From a virus: a stretch of DNA of 64,000 nt. Below the pieces are notes generated by a model. The model did no database searches, was not told where the DNA came from, and saw only the letters and a list, made by a program, of their open reading frames with translations. The position numbers and the translations under genes were made by a program. The stretch lies in UHGV virus genome UHGV-0125682, one strand, 5' to 3'. Below, piece by piece: positions 1 through 62,524 of the stretch; within the stretch, counting starts at the first letter, position 1, and each line of letters starts with the position of its first letter.

Positions 1-1001
1 CTAACAGCACGTCTGAAGTGCTGGCCGCTACACCGAAAGCTGTCAAGGCTGCATATGACCTGGCTAACGGGAAGTACACAGCCCAGGATGCAACCACGAC
101 ACAAAAAGGGATAGTTCAGCTCAGTAGCGACACCAACAGCACTTCTGAAACATTAGCTGCAACTCCAAAAGCGGTTAAAGCTGCATACGATCTAGCAGCC
201 GGAAAGGCACCATCCAATCATATACATCCCTGGAATCAGATCACTGGTGTGCCAACAGCTTCATTGACAGCGAAAGGCATCACTCAGCTCAGTAGTGCCA
301 CTAACAGCACGTCTGAAGTGCTGGCCGCTACACCGAAAGCTGTCAAGGCTGCATACGATCTGGCAAACGGAAAACAACCGGCAGATGCCACGCTCACTGC
401 TCTGGCAGGACTTGCCACTGCAGCAGATCGGTTGCCTTATTTTACCGGAGCAGACCGCGCAGCGCTGGCAACCCTTACAGCTATTGGTCGCGCTATTATC
501 GCTAAGGGCAGTATAAAAGATGTCCTCAATTACCTTGGTTTAGGAGAAGGCTCGGCGCTACCCGTTGGTGTACCTGTTCCGTGGCCCACCGCCACACCGC
601 CAGCAGGCTGGTTAAAGTGCGACGGGCGCGCCTTTACAAAAGAACAATATCCTGTTCTGGCCAGAGTCTACCCGACCCTCCGTCTTCCCGATTTACGCGG
701 TGAGTTTATTCGTGGCTGGGATGACGGACGTGGTGTGGATGCCGGGCGACAATTATTATCTTCACAGGGGGATGCAATAAGAAATATTGAGGGATTCGCA
801 GATGGCGGGATCGGTATGTCTTTTGATGCAATCAGAGGGGCTTTTTATGATGCAGGAACACGATCTGCGAGAATGCCGAATAACACAACTGATATAGGCA
901 AAACCGATGACCTTGGATTCGACGCCTCTCGTGTCGTGCCAACAGCTAATGAAAACCGTCCTCGTAATATTGCCTTTAATTATATCGTAAGGGCGGCATA
1001 A
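1..1001 (+). CDS. Tail fibre protein, 5'-partial (repeat region plus currently expressed C-terminal cassette A)
   Basis: Open in frame from window edge; ~40-aa repeats ...SE(T/V)LAATPKAVKAAYDLA(N/A)GK...; conserved segment GEGSALPVGVPVPWPTATPPAGWLKCDGR...RGEFIRGWDDGR; ends ...NRPRNIAFNYIVRAA. Confidence 0.85.
   Translation, partial: NSTSEVLAATPKAVKAAYDLANGKYTAQDATTTQKGIVQLSSDTNSTSETLAATPKAVKAAYDLAAGKAPSNHIHPWNQITGVPTASLTAKGITQLSSATNSTSEVLAATPKAVKAAYDLANGKQPADATLTALAGLATAADRLPYFTGADRAALATLTAIGRAIIAKGSIKDVLNYLGLGEGSALPVGVPVPWPTATPPAGWLKCDGRAFTKEQYPVLARVYPTLRLPDLRGEFIRGWDDGRGVDAGRQLLSSQGDAIRNIEGFADGGIGMSFDAIRGAFYDAGTRSARMPNNTTDIGKTDDLGFDASRVVPTANENRPRNIAFNYIVRAA
523..548 (+). other. Candidate invertase crossover site 1 (26 bp; complement reads TTCTCCTAAACC-AA-GGTAATTGAGGA)
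   Basis: Half-site TTCTCCTAAACC resembles gix/hix half-sites (TTCCTGTAAACC / TTCTTGAAAACC); 2-bp AA core; lies at start of repeat R1 inside coding sequence. Confidence 0.55.
537..715 (+). repeat. Repeat R1 (~170 bp, one of four near-identical copies)
   Basis: Near-identical to 1009-1190 and, in inverse orientation, to 2420-2597 and 2860-3035; encodes the conserved tail-fibre segment. Confidence 0.9.
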
Positions 1002-16058: not shown

Positions 16059-16283
16059 ATGGTTAATGCCAATCCTTGCTCACGCCCAGAATTCATCTGG
16101 CGTTTCCACTCCCTGCAAAAACACTGCGATCACTTCGCAATTGCCGCAACCGAAAAAGAAGCCCGTTCTCTGATCCCTGATCAGTATGGTGTTCTTACTG
16201 GTCGTTTCTCTACTTCCCCACAACCAAACACTAATCCCTGGTATCGCAATATTACCAATCCCGGAATTGCGGAGGCACACTGA
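16059..16283 (+). CDS. Small protein paralogous to 56458-56673 (Icd-like position upstream of antirepressor)
   Basis: 74 aa; shared motif EFIWRF.S.QKH......AATE.EARS with the second copy; stop overlaps next start. Confidence 0.45.
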   Translation: MVNANPCSRPEFIWRFHSLQKHCDHFAIAATEKEARSLIPDQYGVLTGRFSTSPQPNTNPWYRNITNPGIAEAH

Positions 16284-16990
16284 TGGAAATCTGCATTCTT
16301 GAAAAGCCATCAATGACCAGCATTGAGATCGCGGAGCTGGTGGGAAGTCGTCACTCTGATGTTAAACGCAGCATCGAAAGACTTGTTGCTAAAGGAGTTA
16401 TCCAACATACGCCATTGGCTACAGTTGAGAATAATCAATCACTTAGCCCTAATAAATACACAAAAGCCTATTTCTTCGAAGGCGAGCAAGGCAAGCGCGA
16501 TAGTATTGTCGTCGTCGCGCAGCTCTCTCCCGAATTCACCGCCCGGCTGGTGGACCGCTGGCGCGAACTGGAAGAACAAGTACGCCAGCCGTTGACCGAA
16601 ATAGAGATGATCGCCGCAATGGCTGCAAATGCAGTTCAGCAGCAAAAGCGGCTTCATGTTGTTGAGTCAAAGGTTAGTCAGGTGGTAGAAACCGTCGAGC
16701 AAATCAAGAAGGGCAACATGCCAGATGGTTACATTGGCTACCGCCAGCTGGCTGCGAAATGTGGACTGACCGAAGCCAAATGCCGCAACCTGGTTAATGC
16801 TTACCGGATTCCCACCGATACACATGAGTTTTTAACTCCAGAGGGGGTATTGTCGCGTCGTTCCATCGTGGCCTTATCTCCCTTCATGAATGCTTTTAAC
16901 CGGATGATGTCGGAGGCTGAACACCGAGGAAAACGCTGGTATCACCCCAAAATGGGGCAATTCCAGGTGATCGGTTGGGGAGGTGAGTGA
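16283..16990 (+). CDS. Rha-family phage regulatory protein / antirepressor (Ant-like), lacking C-terminal domain
   Basis: MTSIEIAELVG.RH..VKR... Rha-type N-terminus; ~75% identical to 56673-57614 but stops early. Confidence 0.7.
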   Translation: MEICILEKPSMTSIEIAELVGSRHSDVKRSIERLVAKGVIQHTPLATVENNQSLSPNKYTKAYFFEGEQGKRDSIVVVAQLSPEFTARLVDRWRELEEQVRQPLTEIEMIAAMAANAVQQQKRLHVVESKVSQVVETVEQIKKGNMPDGYIGYRQLAAKCGLTEAKCRNLVNAYRIPTDTHEFLTPEGVLSRRSIVALSPFMNAFNRMMSEAEHRGKRWYHPKMGQFQVIGWGGE

Positions 16991-56147: not shown

Positions 56148-56457
56148 CACTGACTGTTGCGCCCTGGCATTATCGTGGGGTATATTTCTACGGCACCTTA
56201 GAAAAACGGGTGCCGGGATTGGAACCCCGGATAATGCAAAAGGCGACACAGACGCCGAAAGCGTCTTTTTTTGTGTCATGCCATCGCACAGCCATACGTA
56301 GCGTTTAGCTCAGAGATCAATGGTAGTGCTGGCTGGGCTGCCGAAAGGCAGGCCGGTTCCCTTTTGCGCCGGTAGTTCCAACCCAGTCAGTGCTACCGCC
56401 ATTGAGATTGGAACCTCACGCGGTAGCTCCTTAAATTAGCAAAAGGAGGCTGCCAAT

Positions 56458-56673
56458 ATGGCTACTATCCCTACCCCAACTCATTCTGAATTTATCTGGC
56501 GTTTCTATTCCTGCCAAAAACACCTGTATATCTGCGTCATGGCTGCTACCGAAGCAGAAGCTCGTTCATACCTTCCTGAAGAACCCTGCATTTTTGCCGC
56601 ACGCTTCACTCTTGATGCGATGGAGATCCTAAATTACTGGAATCTGCCAATGAACTGCGTGGAGGTGCACTGA
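56458..56673 (+). CDS. Small protein paralogous to 16059-16283 (Icd-like position)
   Basis: 71 aa; RBS AAAGGAGG; stop overlaps next start. Confidence 0.45.
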   Translation: MATIPTPTHSEFIWRFYSCQKHLYICVMAATEAEARSYLPEEPCIFAARFTLDAMEILNYWNLPMNCVEVH

Positions 56674-57614
56674 TGAATCTGTCCATCTCTCAAAAAGCGA
56701 CAATGACCAGTATTGAGATCGCGGAACTGGTAGGTAAGCGTCATGATAATGTGAAGCGTACCATTGAAGTATTAACTAAAGGTGGTGTCATTCAATTTCC
56801 TCAAATTGAGGAAATTGAAAATAAACAATCAGTTGGCCCTCGTCGATTTTCCAAGGCTTACATATTTGAAGGCGAACAAGGAAAACGAGACAGCATCATT
56901 GTCGTCGCGCAGCTCTCTCCGGAATTCACCGCCCGGCTGGTGGACCGCTGGCGCGAACTGGAGAATGCCCGGGTACAGTTAAAATCAAAAGCCGAAATTC
57001 TGGCTGAAATGGCGCAAATGCATCTTGAGCATGAACGCCGGATCAACGCCGTAAATGCCCAGGTAGCCGAGGTATCAGCACAAGTATCGATGGTCGCTGA
57101 AACACTCGAGCAAATAAAGAAAGGCAATATTCCGGAAGGCTACATTGGCTACCGCCAGCTGGCGGCGAAATGTGGCCTGACTGAAGCCAAATGTCGCAAC
57201 CTGGTTAACGCTTTCCGGATTCCCACCGATACGCATGAGTTTTTAACTCCAGATGGTTTGCTTGCGCGACGCTCCATTGTGGCCCTGGTCCCCTTCCGGA
57301 AAGCCTTTAAGCAGGTGATGTCGGAGGCAGAACCACGCAATAAACGCTGGTATCATCCAAAGATGGGGATGTTTCAGGCAATCCACCATCCTGTGCCTGA
57401 AAGCCCAAAGGATAATCTGTCACTACATACCGTCAGAGAGAAGATCAGGACTGGATACGCAACAGTGTGTCGTCGTTCTTCCTGGCCTGAAGGTATATGG
57501 GTGTGGCCCGAAGGTGGATCACGAAAGCACTGTCGCACCATCCGTGACGGGAAAATCCATGCTATTGATTTAGCTCCAGAGGATGTTATTGCTATGGACT
57601 GGATTGTTAGTTAA
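56673..57614 (+). CDS. Rha-family phage regulatory protein / antirepressor (Ant-like), full length
   Basis: 313 aa; MTSIEIAELVGKRHDNVKR...; C-terminal domain present. Confidence 0.7.
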   Translation: MNLSISQKATMTSIEIAELVGKRHDNVKRTIEVLTKGGVIQFPQIEEIENKQSVGPRRFSKAYIFEGEQGKRDSIIVVAQLSPEFTARLVDRWRELENARVQLKSKAEILAEMAQMHLEHERRINAVNAQVAEVSAQVSMVAETLEQIKKGNIPEGYIGYRQLAAKCGLTEAKCRNLVNAFRIPTDTHEFLTPDGLLARRSIVALVPFRKAFKQVMSEAEPRNKRWYHPKMGMFQAIHHPVPESPKDNLSLHTVREKIRTGYATVCRRSSWPEGIWVWPEGGSRKHCRTIRDGKIHAIDLAPEDVIAMDWIVS

Positions 57615-57673: not shown

Positions 57674-57985
57674 ATGAAAAAAATAGATTTCACTTATTCT
57701 GCCGCCACACTTGAGCGGCGCTTCACCCTCATTAGAGAGTTGGAACTGTCAAAAGTCTGGTATCAAATCCTACTGGATGAAGAGTTTTCACTGATGGTTA
57801 TAGCAGAAAAATTGGCTATGCCTAATGATCGGCACAAGGTCATAGCCAGCCTCGATCTGGTGACAAACAGATACTGGGAAACAGAGGAACTACATGAGGC
57901 GGGAGTAATTCGTGACCTGATGGAGAATTCCGTTCCCCGCCGCTATCGTGCAGGGAACGGCATCTCCGTGGTTAAAGGTGTTTAA
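57674..57985 (+). CDS. Hypothetical protein
   Basis: 103 aa. Confidence 0.45.
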   Translation: MKKIDFTYSAATLERRFTLIRELELSKVWYQILLDEEFSLMVIAEKLAMPNDRHKVIASLDLVTNRYWETEELHEAGVIRDLMENSVPRRYRAGNGISVVKGV

Positions 57986-58374
57986 AGCTCACCTGCGCGC
58001 TGTTTTTCAAGCACAGATTTAACATTTGGCGCTTTCCCTTTAAAAGAATGGAAAGTGCCACATTTTTCTGTTTTAACCTCGCGCAGAGCTTCGCCATCGG
58101 CGTTCTGCCATTGATGGGATAATGTCATATCACCGCGAGAAGGAACATCCAGCGAGTACAGCGTGTAAGTTCCCCCCATCTCCGCATACTCCTGGAACAC
58201 ATAGCTCATTACGTCAGATTCAGTTTTTCGGTGTGCGTTATCAACCTTATTCCCATTCAGAAATATGGCATCTGGATAGATTTTTATATCAAACCTACCG
58301 CACTTAACTTGTAAATTTCCGGCGCTCGCGATCAAAGGGAAAGACGCCAGTAAAGCAATAGCCAATCTTTTCAA
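57982..58374 (-). CDS. Secreted protein (signal peptide)
   Basis: 130 aa; MKRLAIALLASFPLIASA. Confidence 0.5.
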   Translation of the reverse strand: MKRLAIALLASFPLIASAGNLQVKCGRFDIKIYPDAIFLNGNKVDNAHRKTESDVMSYVFQEYAEMGGTYTLYSLDVPSRGDMTLSHQWQNADGEALREVKTEKCGTFHSFKGKAPNVKSVLEKQRAGEL

Positions 58375-58394
58375 TTCTGCCTCCGCTGCGTAAC

Positions 58395-59018
58395 TTATTG
58401 CCCGTATTTTTTACACCATTGCTCTGCCATTTGTTTGGCTAAAGGCCCGGCTACTGCACTGTATTCTGCTGTTTTACTTTGCACACATGAAGCAGATGTT
58501 TTTTTATTTCGCTGCTCGGTTAGTTTGCGCTCATAAGCCATCATGCTATCGAACCCGGCAATATCACTTTGGCGAAGCATTCCCTTTTTAACCAAAAATT
58601 GCTGCCCCTCGGGCACCAGCGCAAGCATAAAAAGTGGTTGTAATAACTCACCTAATCCTTGCTGGCGATACACTTCGAATTGCTGCCATCCCTGACTTAA
58701 TCTGGAAAGAGTATCTTTGGTTGAATAACCTGTTTTTGTTATAGCTTTGTCCGTCAGATATGCTGTATATGCAAAAACGCAAAAGTCAGTTTTACCAATA
58801 AACTGAGTTCCAACAGGCCGTAATGGAATGCCCTCTCTCTTGCAAAAGTCCATAATTGCCGCTTGTGAATGATCCCCACCAGCGTTATTCATAACCTGCT
58901 GCCCTGCCCTGAATTGTGCAGGTAACGCAGTTGCATTGGCTGTATTAACAGATACGCATCCCAACATAGCCGCGAGCGCGGTCCCTAAAACCCTTAACTT
59001 CACTACACCGTCCTTCAT
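58395..59018 (-). CDS. Secreted protein (signal peptide)
   Basis: 207 aa; hydrophobic N-terminus ...LGTALAAMLGCVSVNTANA. Confidence 0.5.
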   Translation of the reverse strand: MKDGVVKLRVLGTALAAMLGCVSVNTANATALPAQFRAGQQVMNNAGGDHSQAAIMDFCKREGIPLRPVGTQFIGKTDFCVFAYTAYLTDKAITKTGYSTKDTLSRLSQGWQQFEVYRQQGLGELLQPLFMLALVPEGQQFLVKKGMLRQSDIAGFDSMMAYERKLTEQRNKKTSASCVQSKTAEYSAVAGPLAKQMAEQWCKKYGQ

Positions 59019-59286
59019 GTAAACAAAATGAAGTTTTATGTTACAAAAACAATCAACTACATCAACATGATTTAGGCCAAATTTCGGTCAAAAAATAAAA
59101 TCCACAAAAAGTGGTTGACACTATTTTGGAAATCACAAACTGCACATAATCCATCGCGCTAACGGCTCCCGTTGAAGGTTCTTTTGACGATTAACTTTCA
59201 GCCGAAGCGCGGTAGGGAGTCATAACGCCAAAGCAGGCCGCCATGTGCGGCCTTTTTTTGTATCCGTCATCCGTGGAGGAAGGACA

Positions 59287-61783: not shown

Positions 61784-61808
61784 AAGGTGGGTTTATCCCA
61801 CCTTTTTA
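61784..61808. terminator. Bidirectional rho-independent terminator
   Basis: AAAGGTGGG-TTTATC-CCACCTTT flanked by A- and T-runs, between convergent genes. Confidence 0.7.
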
Positions 61809-62524
61809 TTAGCATCGCATTTAATTTTTTCAAGTGAATCAGAAAGCTTTGAGAGAAGCTCCTCAAGTGTTTCCCTGTCATTTGTATCACCCGAACGAAA
61901 AGATGAGTTTTTCACGGCGGTAAAAAATTCATAAAAATCATCCACCGAATTTAAGCTCTCACCTTTCTCTCTATATAATTTAATAATATGAATGATATCG
62001 CTATCCACACATTCAATCTGTTTCCTAATTTCTTTAAGCCGTTTTTCTAATGATTCAAGTTCTTCTTCTTGTTCAATATACTTTTTAACGTCTCTCTGCT
62101 TCTTAATGGCTTTCTTAATATCACTGTTAATTGTCCTTATTTGTTCTTTTTTATTTGCAATTTCATCTATTTTTCTTAATTTAGCATATAATGTGCTTGT
62201 CACCAAAGAAATTAACAGGGTTAACAGTGGCGCTAATATTGATGCCACAACACCATAAATAAAAGGCAAAACAAAATGAGCTACGAACGATGGTAAAAAA
62301 AGATTCCCCAATAATGGGATCTTTTCCCCGACAAACACTATAGATAATGTATACATAACATCATCTTTTGACTTCAGTAATATAAATATGTCTCGCCAAT
62401 TAGAAATTAAAAACGAAATAAAAATGTAGGCAAAAACCTTATTAAACAACTTATCTTTTACAGCATCTTCTAACAGATTTTGGGTAGAGGAGTTTTCCTT
62501 TTCTATTGATGAATCAGCGCTCAT
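61793..62524 (-). CDS. AT-rich membrane protein with C-terminal coiled coil
   Basis: 243 aa; hydrophobic helices in residues ~30-110, then K/E-rich heptads; markedly lower GC than neighbours. Confidence 0.55.
   Translation of the reverse strand: MSADSSIEKENSSTQNLLEDAVKDKLFNKVFAYIFISFLISNWRDIFILLKSKDDVMYTLSIVFVGEKIPLLGNLFLPSFVAHFVLPFIYGVVASILAPLLTLLISLVTSTLYAKLRKIDEIANKKEQIRTINSDIKKAIKKQRDVKKYIEQEEELESLEKRLKEIRKQIECVDSDIIHIIKLYREKGESLNSVDDFYEFFTAVKNSSFRSGDTNDRETLEELLSKLSDSLEKIKCDANKKVG

What the first reader, a model, noticed from the sequence alone, without database searches (positions are those of the whole stretch)
57982..59018. Pair of secreted proteins of unknown function
Two adjacent leftward genes both encode proteins with N-terminal signal peptides and no recognisable enzymatic motifs. 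Phage-encoded periplasmic proteins are often superinfection-exclusion factors or lysozyme/toxin inhibitors.
Basis: inference. Interest (0 to 1): 0.35.

Follow-up and report, generated by a model that had tools for sequence, protein, structure and literature searches.

The report
Secreted protein pair in sim-like slot
Two adjacent genes of a D6/P1-like phage-plasmid of E. coli encode exported proteins from uncharacterised families that work as a pair and sit where related phages carry a "superimmunity" gene, so they are most likely a new module for keeping rival phages out, though no experiment shows this.

Summary
Two co-oriented minus-strand genes, orfA (58395-59003/59018) and orfB (57982-58374), both start with a classic signal peptide. 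Both are conserved under purifying selection, with dN/dS about 0.1.

The window is a D6-like phage-plasmid. The pair lies between the immI-like module (C4 RNA, icd, ant, pmgF-like) and mat. Phage D6 carries its SimB-like "superimmunity accessory" gene in exactly this slot.

- **Natural fusions:** orfA and orfB occur as one polypeptide in Enterobacter phage-plasmids and in other relatives.
- **Pairing:** orfA is followed by orfB in 14 of 17 viral loci and 16 of 19 metagenome loci.
- **SimB links:** in other relatives orfA is followed by the SimB-like gene, or a SimB homologue sits directly before an orfA::orfB fusion.
- **D6:** it is a 588-bp deletion derivative that keeps only orfA's first ~14 codons.

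Best reading, confidence about 0.4: a two-part envelope module of the sim-type locus that excludes superinfecting phage. The function is inferred, not shown. Interest is moderate.

The parts
58395..59018 (-). orfA. It is 207 aa from ATG 59018, but more likely 202 aa from GTG 59003. It is an exported all-alpha protein of the PHROG family phrog_12786.
58932..59003 (-). orfA signal peptide, MKLRVLGTALAAMLGCVSVNTANA, with predicted cleavage before the conserved TALPA. It contains a non-conserved lipobox-like MLGC.
   Evidence: A signal peptide followed by an (A)LP(A) motif recurs in nearly all full-length homologues. Cys16 is Gly in P0002, P0003 and P0008.
58530..58950 (-). Core N-domain of orfA. 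It carries the invariant Cys pair and the GYS-x-KDT motif. This is the segment that differs most between allele lineages (50-68% nt identity).
   Evidence: Sliding identity against NZ_CP104667. Invariant columns. dS is saturated here, as it is in mat, so these are old allele lineages joined to orfB by recombination.
58380..58384 (-). GGAGG ribosome-binding site of orfB, in the 20-nt gap after the orfA stop codon.
   Evidence: Sequence reading.
57982..58374 (-). orfB, 130 aa with a TTG start. It is an exported beta-rich protein of about 112 aa when mature, with an invariant Cys25/Cys105 pair. PHROG family phrog_13864.
58321..58374 (-). orfB signal peptide, MKRLAIALLASFPLIASA, with predicted cleavage before GNLQV.
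   Evidence: In the fusion proteins this segment is replaced by a linker.
59019..59244 (.). Divergent control region shared by orfA and mat. Together with the first ~14 codons of orfA it is conserved (about 96%) in D6 and NZ_AP027688, and it acts as the fixed left anchor of the cassette site.
   Evidence: A late-promoter-like box lies on the + strand only, at 59109-59127. The scan found no consensus sigma-70 promoter. No P1-type C1 operator was found.

Best explanation
orfA and orfB form a two-gene operon of a D6-like phage-plasmid.

**Proposed mechanism**
1. Both products are exported by the Sec pathway.
2. They are oxidised in the periplasm, giving two likely disulfides in orfA and one in orfB.
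3. They act together as one unit, probably as a complex.
4. orfA may additionally be lipid-anchored in this allele.

**Proposed role**
- The operon is one of several interchangeable cargoes of the sim-type accessory locus next to the immI region.
- Its most likely role is superinfection exclusion. The resident element would place the pair in the envelope, where it blocks an envelope-crossing step of incoming P1/D6-like phage. The model is P1 Sim, which blocks infection after adsorption and before DNA reaches the cytoplasm.

**Shown here**
- Gene structure, export signals and conserved cysteines.
- Purifying selection.
- The functional link between orfA and orfB.
- The slot, its cassette behaviour and its linkage to SimB homologues.
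- Dispensability for phage viability.

**Inferred**
- Physical complex formation.
- Expression in the lysogen.
- The exclusion phenotype and its target.
For: **Export**
- Most homologues have a clear tripartite signal peptide, and mature cysteine counts are usually even.

**orfA and orfB are one unit**
- Natural single-chain fusions exist: P0024/P0040 (277 aa, Enterobacter hormaechei, 13 cluster members), P0027, and L055/L077.
- orfB follows orfA in 14 of 17 IMG/VR loci and 16 of 19 metagenome loci.
- The pair is still adjacent at about 30% identity on a Vibrio plasmid, where the orfB-like reading frame looks interrupted.

**Sim-type locus**
- The same slot, divergent from mat and beside c4-icd-ant, holds the SimB-like orf79 in D6.
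- In NZ_AP027688, L035, L037 and L038, orfA is followed by that SimB-like gene instead of orfB.
- In L055/L077 a 111-aa SimB homologue (37% identical to P1 SimB, E 1e-18) directly precedes an orfA::orfB fusion.
- D6 equals NZ_AP027688 minus 588 bp that remove orfA.
- The closest complete plasmid has no SimA, SimB, SimC or orf79 homologue.

**Accessory, not essential**
- D6 is a plaque-forming phage that lacks both genes.
- P1 sim genes are non-essential (PMC10695390).
- Only 38 of 5426 complete E. coli genomes carry the cassette, almost always on plasmids.

**Other points**
- P1 sim confers superinfection exclusion (PMC9177967 citing Kliem & Dreiseikelmann 1989; PMC2409434).
- No late-promoter box lies on the orfA strand.
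Against: - There is no detectable homology to SimA, SimB, SimC or the C-terminal domain of D6 orf79, by BLASTP, hhalign or HMM.
- The only Sim protein with a demonstrated phenotype is SimC. SimC is absent here, and none of the SimB-like genes found next to orfA is a SimC homologue. SimB is only a 'putative accessory'.
- Guilt by association in a cargo hotspot is weak evidence, because hotspots collect unrelated genes.
- Expression timing is unknown. The scan found no consensus sigma-70 promoter.
- Distant orfA homologues sit alone in non-phage contexts: the Pantoea chromosome and a Proteus island beside an integrase.
- orfB homologues occur alone on an Enterobacter kobei plasmid.
- No phenotype data exist in the searched literature.
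Confidence: 0.4

Rival explanations
1. The pair is a lysogenic-conversion factor that benefits the host for reasons unrelated to phage. It could be a periplasmic protective or immunity pair against envelope-targeting attack, such as colicins, type VI amidase or muramidase effectors, or host lysozyme. It could also be another envelope fitness factor carried as cargo.
For: - The proteins are exported, disulfide-bonded and non-enzymatic, and sit on a mobile element in a cargo hotspot.
- Distant orfA homologues occur outside phages, on the Pantoea chromosome and a Proteus island.
- A lone orfB homologue lies next to an Hcp gene on an Enterobacter kobei plasmid.
- orfB resembles small ligand- or partner-binding barrels.
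Against: - No cognate toxin gene is adjacent.
- The locus is tightly fixed next to mat and immI in P1/D6-like elements and is repeatedly combined with SimB homologues.
- The families are almost confined to phage-plasmid-sized replicons.
Confidence: 0.2
2. The pair excludes phage by masking a receptor rather than by blocking entry. In this allele orfA would be an outer-membrane lipoprotein, lipidated at Cys16, that together with orfB inactivates an outer-membrane component used by incoming phage. This is the mode used by T5 Llp and T1/phi80 Cor, and it could also protect progeny from adsorbing to debris.
For: - This allele and several others have a lipobox-like MLGC at the right distance from the N-terminus (my reading of the PROSITE lipobox rule).
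- The best BFVD neighbours of orfB are annotated lipoproteins: Serratia phage Scapp (E 4.6e-4, TM 0.46) and Escherichia phage ESCO41 (E 0.047).
Against: - The Cys is replaced by Gly in alleles P0002, P0003 and P0008, and is absent from all distant homologues. The AxA site followed by LPA is the conserved feature instead.
- The BFVD matches are weak, with TM below 0.5.
- From prior knowledge, P1-type phages adsorb to the LPS core, which a lipoprotein on the periplasmic face could hardly mask.
Confidence: 0.1
3. The pair has a lytic-cycle function in the envelope, for example modulating lysis timing, endolysin or spanin activity, or release. It would be expressed with mat during lytic growth rather than in the lysogen.
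For: - The pair is divergent from mat and shares its control region, which carries a late-promoter-like box.
- The proteins are exported.
Against: - The late-promoter-like box is on the mat strand only.
- The lysis genes lie far away in the related plasmid.
- Neither protein looks like a spanin: there is no N-terminal membrane anchor plus embedded lipoprotein gene.
- D6 plaques without either gene.
- The slot exchanges with a SimB-like gene.
Confidence: 0.07
4. The ORFs, or their signal peptides, are artefacts. They would be non-coding or decaying ORFs, or orfA would really start at Met43 as PGAP annotates in some records and would be cytoplasmic.
For: - PGAP gives a 165-aa product from Met43 in NZ_CP021537 and NZ_CP115379.
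- orfB uses a rare TTG start.
Against: - dN/dS is about 0.1 in both genes.
- Both AF2 models are confident.
- The signal-peptide region is retained in homologues down to 22-28% identity, directly before a conserved LP motif.
- Both proposed starts have Shine-Dalgarno sequences.
- The cysteine pairs are conserved.
Confidence: 0.02

Closest known systems
P1 sim (superimmunity) locus: simA-simB-simC
   Same: - It is a short operon of small proteins, each with an N-terminal signal peptide (sequences).
- It lies beside the c4-icd-ant immunity region of a P1-type phage-plasmid.
- It is dispensable for plaque formation.
- SimB homologues are found in the same operon as orfA, or as orfA::orfB, in relatives.
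   Different: - There is no sequence or profile similarity to SimA, SimB or SimC.
- The locus lies downstream of immI and divergent from mat, whereas in P1 it is upstream of c4.
- SimC, the proven exclusion determinant, has no counterpart by homology.
Phage D6 orf79 ('putative superimmunity accessory function protein', SimB-like domain plus a C-terminal domain of about 160 aa)
   Same: - It occupies exactly the same slot.
- It shares the same upstream control region and even the first ~14 codons, at 96-97% nt identity.
- It is exported.
- It follows orfA in NZ_AP027688, L035, L037 and L038.
   Different: - It is unrelated in sequence beyond the shared leader.
- D6 has lost orfA through a 588-bp deletion, so the annotated N-terminus of orf79 is a relic of orfA.
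T5 Llp and T1/phi80 Cor-type exclusion lipoproteins
   Same: - They are small exported phage proteins, rich in beta strands and containing disulfides.
- The weak best BFVD neighbours of orfB are annotated phage lipoproteins.
- orfA in this allele has a lipobox-like motif.
   Different: - orfB has no lipobox.
- The structural matches have TM below 0.5.
- No homology was shown, and receptor masking was not tested.
VtrC and ToxS periplasmic calycin-like barrels
   Same: - From prior knowledge, they are periplasmic barrels that function only as obligate partners of a second protein's periplasmic domain. This matches the genetic coupling and fusion of orfB with orfA.
   Different: - Those proteins are membrane-anchored regulators of transcription factors, not phage cargo.

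Membership tests
P1 SimC (sim superinfection-exclusion protein) | Sequence homology to SimC | tested here: not met
   BLASTP found no hit. hhalign probability was below 1% for both families. tblastn of SimC against the window and against the closest full plasmid found nothing.
P1 SimC (sim superinfection-exclusion protein) | Cleavable signal peptide, with the processed protein outside the cytoplasm | tested here: met
   Both proteins have tripartite signal peptides with AxA sites, conserved across both families. This rests on a heuristic; SignalP was not available.
P1 SimC (sim superinfection-exclusion protein) | Blocks P1 infection after adsorption but not transfection | not testable with these tools
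   This needs plating, adsorption and transfection assays.
SimB family (P1 SimB, N-domain of D6 orf79) | Sequence homology to SimB | tested here: not met
   BLASTP E-values were above 0.3. hhalign against orf79 gave 0.9% probability. As a positive control, D6 orf79 and the L055 protein do match P1 SimB, at E 2e-26 and 1e-18.
sim-type accessory locus (positional and operonic membership) | Operon of exported proteins beside immI, in the same operon as a SimB homologue in relatives | tested here: met
   C4 RNA, icd and ant are adjacent. The slot is the same as D6 orf79. The orfA-then-SimB-like and SimB-then-orfA::orfB architectures both occur.
Sec/SPase I secreted proteins | Positive n-region, hydrophobic h-region of 7-15 residues, small residues at -3 and -1 | tested here: met
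   One search covers the two window proteins and all 24 homologues. The even, conserved cysteine counts in the mature parts support an oxidising compartment.
Bacterial lipoproteins (SPase II) | Lipobox [LVI][ASTVI][GAS]C with an invariant Cys | tested here: inconclusive
   orfA has A-M-L-G-C16, which fits the permissive PROSITE-type rule (my reading). The Cys is Gly in P0002, P0003 and P0008 and is absent in distant homologues. orfB has no Cys in its signal peptide.
Periplasmic lysozyme inhibitors (Ivy, MliC/PliC, PliG) | Match to the family profiles or folds | tested here: not met
   [not shown]
Spanins (Rz/Rz1 type) | Inner-membrane-anchored i-spanin plus an embedded or adjacent outer-membrane lipoprotein o-spanin within a lysis cassette | tested here: not met
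   orfA is a globular helical protein with a cleavable signal. orfB has no lipobox. The holin and lysis genes lie elsewhere in the related plasmid.
PHROG families phrog_12786 (orfA) and phrog_13864 (orfB) | Full-length profile match | tested here: met
   E-values are 1.8e-132 and 2.9e-90, both end to end, and both families are 'unknown function'.
Known anti-phage defence systems (PADLOC-DB) | Match to any defence-protein model | tested here: not met
   No hit at E up to 0.1.

The most novel reading that the evidence does not exclude
orfA and orfB define an unrecognised two-domain periplasmic exclusion system: an alpha domain with a fold not seen in the PDB, plus a disulfide-bearing beta barrel.

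P1/D6-like phage-plasmids would mix and match these domains with SimB modules at one recombination-prone locus. Deeply diverged orfA alleles would set which rival phage-plasmids are excluded. That would make the locus an 'exclusion-type' determinant shaping which phage-plasmids can coexist in Enterobacteriaceae.
Probability: 0.2. Interest if true: 0.55.

Novelty: new variant of a known kind. Interest (0 to 1): 0.4.

Why it matters
P1/D6-like phage-plasmids are common carriers of resistance genes in E. coli, Salmonella and Shigella. What decides whether a cell that holds one can take up another is poorly understood.

The only described P1 exclusion system, sim, has no known mechanism, and its accessory genes have no known function.

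This work shows that the sim-type locus is a cassette site that swaps exported modules: SimB-like, orfA and orfB, both separate and fused. That gives a concrete, testable set of candidate exclusion proteins. It also supplies a confident all-alpha model with no relative among solved structures.

Finally, it corrects two annotations: the start of D6 orf79, and the truncated PGAP call of orfA.

If the pair does something else in the envelope, it is still a compact, conserved two-protein unit of unknown function carried by a clinically relevant mobile element.

Tried and rejected
- **Family libraries.** Pfam, NCBIfam and PADLOC scans of the two proteins, and Pfam scans of 30 family members, gave nothing above noise.
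- **PDB by sequence.** Profile searches found nothing.
- **INPHARED phages.** tblastn found no match for either protein.
- **Homology to Sim proteins.** SimA, SimB, SimC and D6 orf79 were rejected by BLASTP, hhalign and HMM search of six-frame translations.
- **SimA signal peptide.** It is 43% identical to that of orfA over 21 residues. I tested whether simA is a relic of an orfA-type gene. There is no DNA homology, so I dropped the idea.
- **Faster evolution of orfA.** I first read the 65% orfA versus 96% orfB identity pattern as faster evolution or diversifying selection of orfA. The Nei-Gojobori analysis shows dN/dS of about 0.13 with saturated dS in orfA and mat, but dS of 0.24 in orfB. 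The pattern is therefore recombination between old allele lineages, not positive selection.
- **Regulatory sites.** No P1-type C1 operator was found anywhere in the window. The operator-like sequence near mat is not repeated elsewhere. No consensus sigma-70 promoter was found. Regulation remains unknown.
- **Fold libraries.** The afdb50 library was unavailable.
- **Species-representative genomes.** Scans of genome contigs with both families returned no relatives.
- **Literature.** Searches for the protein accessions, the PHROG ids and related terms found no study of these proteins. Lobocka et al. 2004 was not held.
Full report
**1. What is there**

The finding's coordinates match two co-oriented minus-strand ORFs exactly.
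- orfA is 58395..59018: 207 aa from the first ATG.
- orfB is 57982..58374: 130 aa from a TTG.
- A 20-nt gap separates them. A GGAGG lies 5 nt before the orfB start.

orfA more probably starts at GTG 59003, giving 202 aa. That start has an AAGGA 7 nt upstream, and homologue P0001 and D6 orf79 begin at the same codon.

Both N-termini are textbook signal peptides:
- orfA: MKLRVLGTALAAMLGCVSVNTANA|TALPA
- orfB: MKRLAIALLASFPLIASA|GNLQV

**2. Is the export signal real?**

I could not run SignalP. I used a crude n/h/c and -3/-1 scorer on the two proteins and on 24 homologues.
- Each one has a candidate cleavage site, and nearly all have a positive n-region and hydrophobic core, although that region diverges in sequence.
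- orfA relatives carry a conserved (A)LP(A) motif straight after the predicted cut.
- Mature orfA has four cysteines that are invariant among its nine closest relatives (C59, C80, C178, C202 in 207-aa numbering). Mature orfB has two (C25, C105). Most relatives likewise have an even count.
- In natural orfA::orfB fusions the orfB signal peptide is replaced by a linker that ends where cleavage is predicted.

Two caveats apply.
- This allele of orfA has a lipobox-like MLGC16. It is Gly in alleles P0002, P0003 and P0008, and absent from distant homologues.
- PGAP starts orfA at Met43 in some records. The conservation of the upstream segment argues against that start.

Both genes are under purifying selection. 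dN/dS is 0.09-0.17 for orfA and 0.08-0.29 for orfB.

**3. Where it sits**

The window is a D6/P1-like phage-plasmid of Enterobacteriaceae.

Upstream, on the + strand, lie:
- a C4 antisense RNA (RF01695, 56316-56403);
- icd;
- a Rha-type antirepressor;
- a pmgF-like gene whose stop codon overlaps that of orfB.

On the other side, orfA diverges from mat (mat start 59287).

In phage D6 the same slot holds orf79, annotated 'putative superimmunity accessory function protein, similar to P1 simB'. Residues 52-137 of orf79 are 52% identical to P1 SimB.

Nucleotide identity between the window and D6 (96-97%) runs through the mat-orfA control region and stops about 14 codons into orfA.

A published comparison of D6-like Salmonella plasmids had already noted that the simB neighbourhood is replaced by hypothetical genes in pSL26_91 (PMC6799933). 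That plasmid, NZ_CP032492, carries this cassette.

**4. The two proteins are one functional unit**

An exhaustive HMMER search of 1.84 billion representative proteins with the orfA profile found only 22 proteins. Among them are single polypeptides joining an orfA N-domain to an orfB domain:
- P0024 (277 aa; 13 cluster members, those named being from Enterobacter hormaechei or E. cloacae, most on contigs of about 87 kb);
- P0027 (281 aa).

The Enterobacter fusion lies in the same slot, divergent from mat.

Architectures in other collections:

| Collection | orfA then orfB (separate genes) | Other loci |
|---|---|---|
| IMG/VR, 17 orfA loci | 14 | 3 have orfA then the SimB-like gene |
| Metagenome, 19 orfB loci | 16 | 1 single-chain fusion, 1 SimB homologue before a fusion, 1 truncated orfB without orfA |

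In every locus long enough to show it, the operon diverges from mat. The orfA-orfB order survives at about 30% identity on a Vibrio parahaemolyticus plasmid, though the orfB-like reading frame there looks interrupted.

Solo copies also exist:
- orfA on an IS-rich 168-kb plasmid, on a Proteus island beside an integrase, and on the Pantoea chromosome;
- orfB on an Enterobacter kobei plasmid.

**5. Link to sim**

In NZ_AP027688 and IMG/VR loci L035, L037 and L038, orfA is followed by the D6-type SimB-like gene instead of orfB.

D6 equals that arrangement minus 588 bp. The deletion removes orfA from about codon 15 to 16 nt past its stop. The annotated N-terminus of D6 orf79 (VKLMVLGTALAAKM...) is therefore a relic of orfA's signal peptide.

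In the more distant L055 and L077, a 111-aa SimB homologue (37% identical to P1 SimB, E 1e-18) sits directly before an orfA::orfB fusion. P1 has simC in that position.

The closest complete plasmid, NZ_CP115379, has no SimA, SimB, SimC or orf79 homologue anywhere.

So orfA and orfB belong to the repertoire of exported modules that are combined at the sim-type locus. They are not homologous to any Sim protein by BLASTP, hhalign or HMM.

**6. Structures**

orfA:
- The AF2 model has mean pLDDT 82, with nine helices after a disordered signal peptide.
- The conserved core spans roughly residues 27-165. It carries the first Cys pair and an invariant G-Y-S-x-x-D-T motif.
- The C-terminal helical hairpin, with the second Cys pair, comes in at least two versions. 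It is replaced by orfB in the fusions.

orfB:
- The AF2 model has mean pLDDT 88, with nine strands and a short helix.
- Matches in the viral structure set are weak. The best is a Serratia phage 'lipoprotein' at TM 0.46.

No family library names either protein except two PHROGs of unknown function.

**7. Evolution**

Against the '65% allele' lineages, orfA looks far more diverged than orfB. Identity is 65% versus 96% at the amino-acid level. Nucleotide identity is 50-68% across 58950-58530 and 83-100% from 58526 onward.

Codon analysis shows this is not faster or diversifying evolution. dS is saturated in both orfA and mat (about 1.8-2.7), but only 0.24 in orfB. dN/dS for orfA is about 0.13.

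So old orfA-plus-mat lineages have been recombined with a younger orfB-plus-pmgF segment. The junction lies near the 3' end of orfA.

At comparable dS, orfA is less constrained than mat: dN 0.25 versus 0.08.

**8. Regulation (unresolved)**

- The only P1 late-promoter-like box in the control region is on the mat strand, at 59109-59127. It has two mismatches and is not significant on its own.
- There is no P1-type C1 operator in the window.
- The scan found no consensus sigma-70 promoter.
- Expression in the lysogen is therefore assumed, not shown.

**9. Interpretation**

The best-supported reading is that orfA and orfB are an exported two-part unit. They would be one of the interchangeable cargoes of the sim-type locus, and would act in the envelope to exclude superinfecting P1/D6-like phage.

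The model is P1 sim. It confers superinfection exclusion (Kliem & Dreiseikelmann 1989, cited in PMC9177967; PMC2409434) and is non-essential (PMC10695390).

I give this about 0.4. The argument is positional and by association. SimB has no proven role, SimC is absent, and cargo hotspots collect unrelated genes.

Rivals:

| Rival | Confidence |
|---|---|
| Another envelope-protective conversion function | 0.2 |
| Llp/Cor-like receptor-masking variant with lipidated orfA | 0.1 |
| Lytic-cycle envelope role | 0.07 |
| Artefact | 0.02 |

The remaining probability is for functions I have not thought of.

**10. Prevalence and novelty**

- The full cassette is in 38 of 5426 complete E. coli genomes, and nearly all matching places are on plasmids.
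- orfA is in 69 PLSDB plasmids and orfB in 87.
- Neither family appears in the 185,579 species-representative genomes at the sensitivity of that scan.
- No paper in the searched library mentions these proteins.

I rate this a new variant of a known kind, namely a prophage-encoded exported exclusion-type locus. Interest is moderate.

Noticed in passing
window 56193-57614: An immI-like module lies here: an isrK-like sRNA (56193-56271), C4 antisense RNA (56316-56403), icd (56458-56673) and a Rha-type antirepressor (56673-57614). A pmgF-like gene (57674-57985) follows, and its stop codon overlaps the orfB stop.
   Followed up: partly
window 16271-16576: This stretch is 75% identical to the region just after icd (start of the Rha-type antirepressor) in NZ_CP115379, and the immI region at window 56661-57368 resembles that plasmid's second icd/Rha module. 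The element may therefore carry two immI-like modules.
   Followed up: no
L001 (phage D6) 5888-6037, orf79 start: The annotated N-terminus of D6 orf79 is the in-frame relic of orfA's first ~14 codons, left by a 588-bp deletion relative to NZ_AP027688. The real SimB-like protein probably starts at MFFIKNGKRF.
   Followed up: yes
NZ_CP021537 / NZ_CP115379 (L010, L021), WP_001436217.1: PGAP annotates orfA as 165 aa starting at Met43. This removes the conserved signal peptide, so automated localisation predictions on that accession would be wrong.
   Followed up: partly
L055 4154-5339 and L077 855-1995: In a distant P1-like contig, a 111-aa SimB homologue is immediately followed by an orfA::orfB fusion of about 282 aa, in the position P1 gives to simC. 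HigB/HigA-like genes lie between this operon and mat.
   Followed up: partly
window 59230-59258: A GC-rich hairpin followed by a T-run lies on the + strand, between the late-promoter-like box (59109-59127) and the mat start (59287). It could terminate or attenuate transcription into mat, or belong to its leader.
   Followed up: no
window 61793-62524 (-): A 243-aa protein with predicted membrane segments and a coiled coil. It has a weak Pfam hit to TraS entry exclusion (E 0.06) and lies next to RelE/HigA modules in relatives. It may be another exclusion or abortive-infection gene.
   Followed up: no
window 1-370: This stretch matches a series of 300-bp tandem repeats inside the tail-fibre gene of NZ_CP115379 (61178-63099).
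   Followed up: no
L003-L006 (168-kb plasmid OZ039654 and relatives): A solo orfA homologue (57% identity) lies among IS elements, RepL and pmgF-like remnants, an Ail/Lom gene and an SslE/M60 peptidase gene. It looks like a fragment of a P1-like element captured by a large virulence-type plasmid.
   Followed up: partly
P1 SimA versus orfA N-termini: The signal peptides of P1 SimA and orfA are 43% identical over 21 residues (K-x-G-x-V-x-[ML]-R ... VN-A). The DNA shows no homology, so this is unexplained and may be chance.
   Followed up: yes
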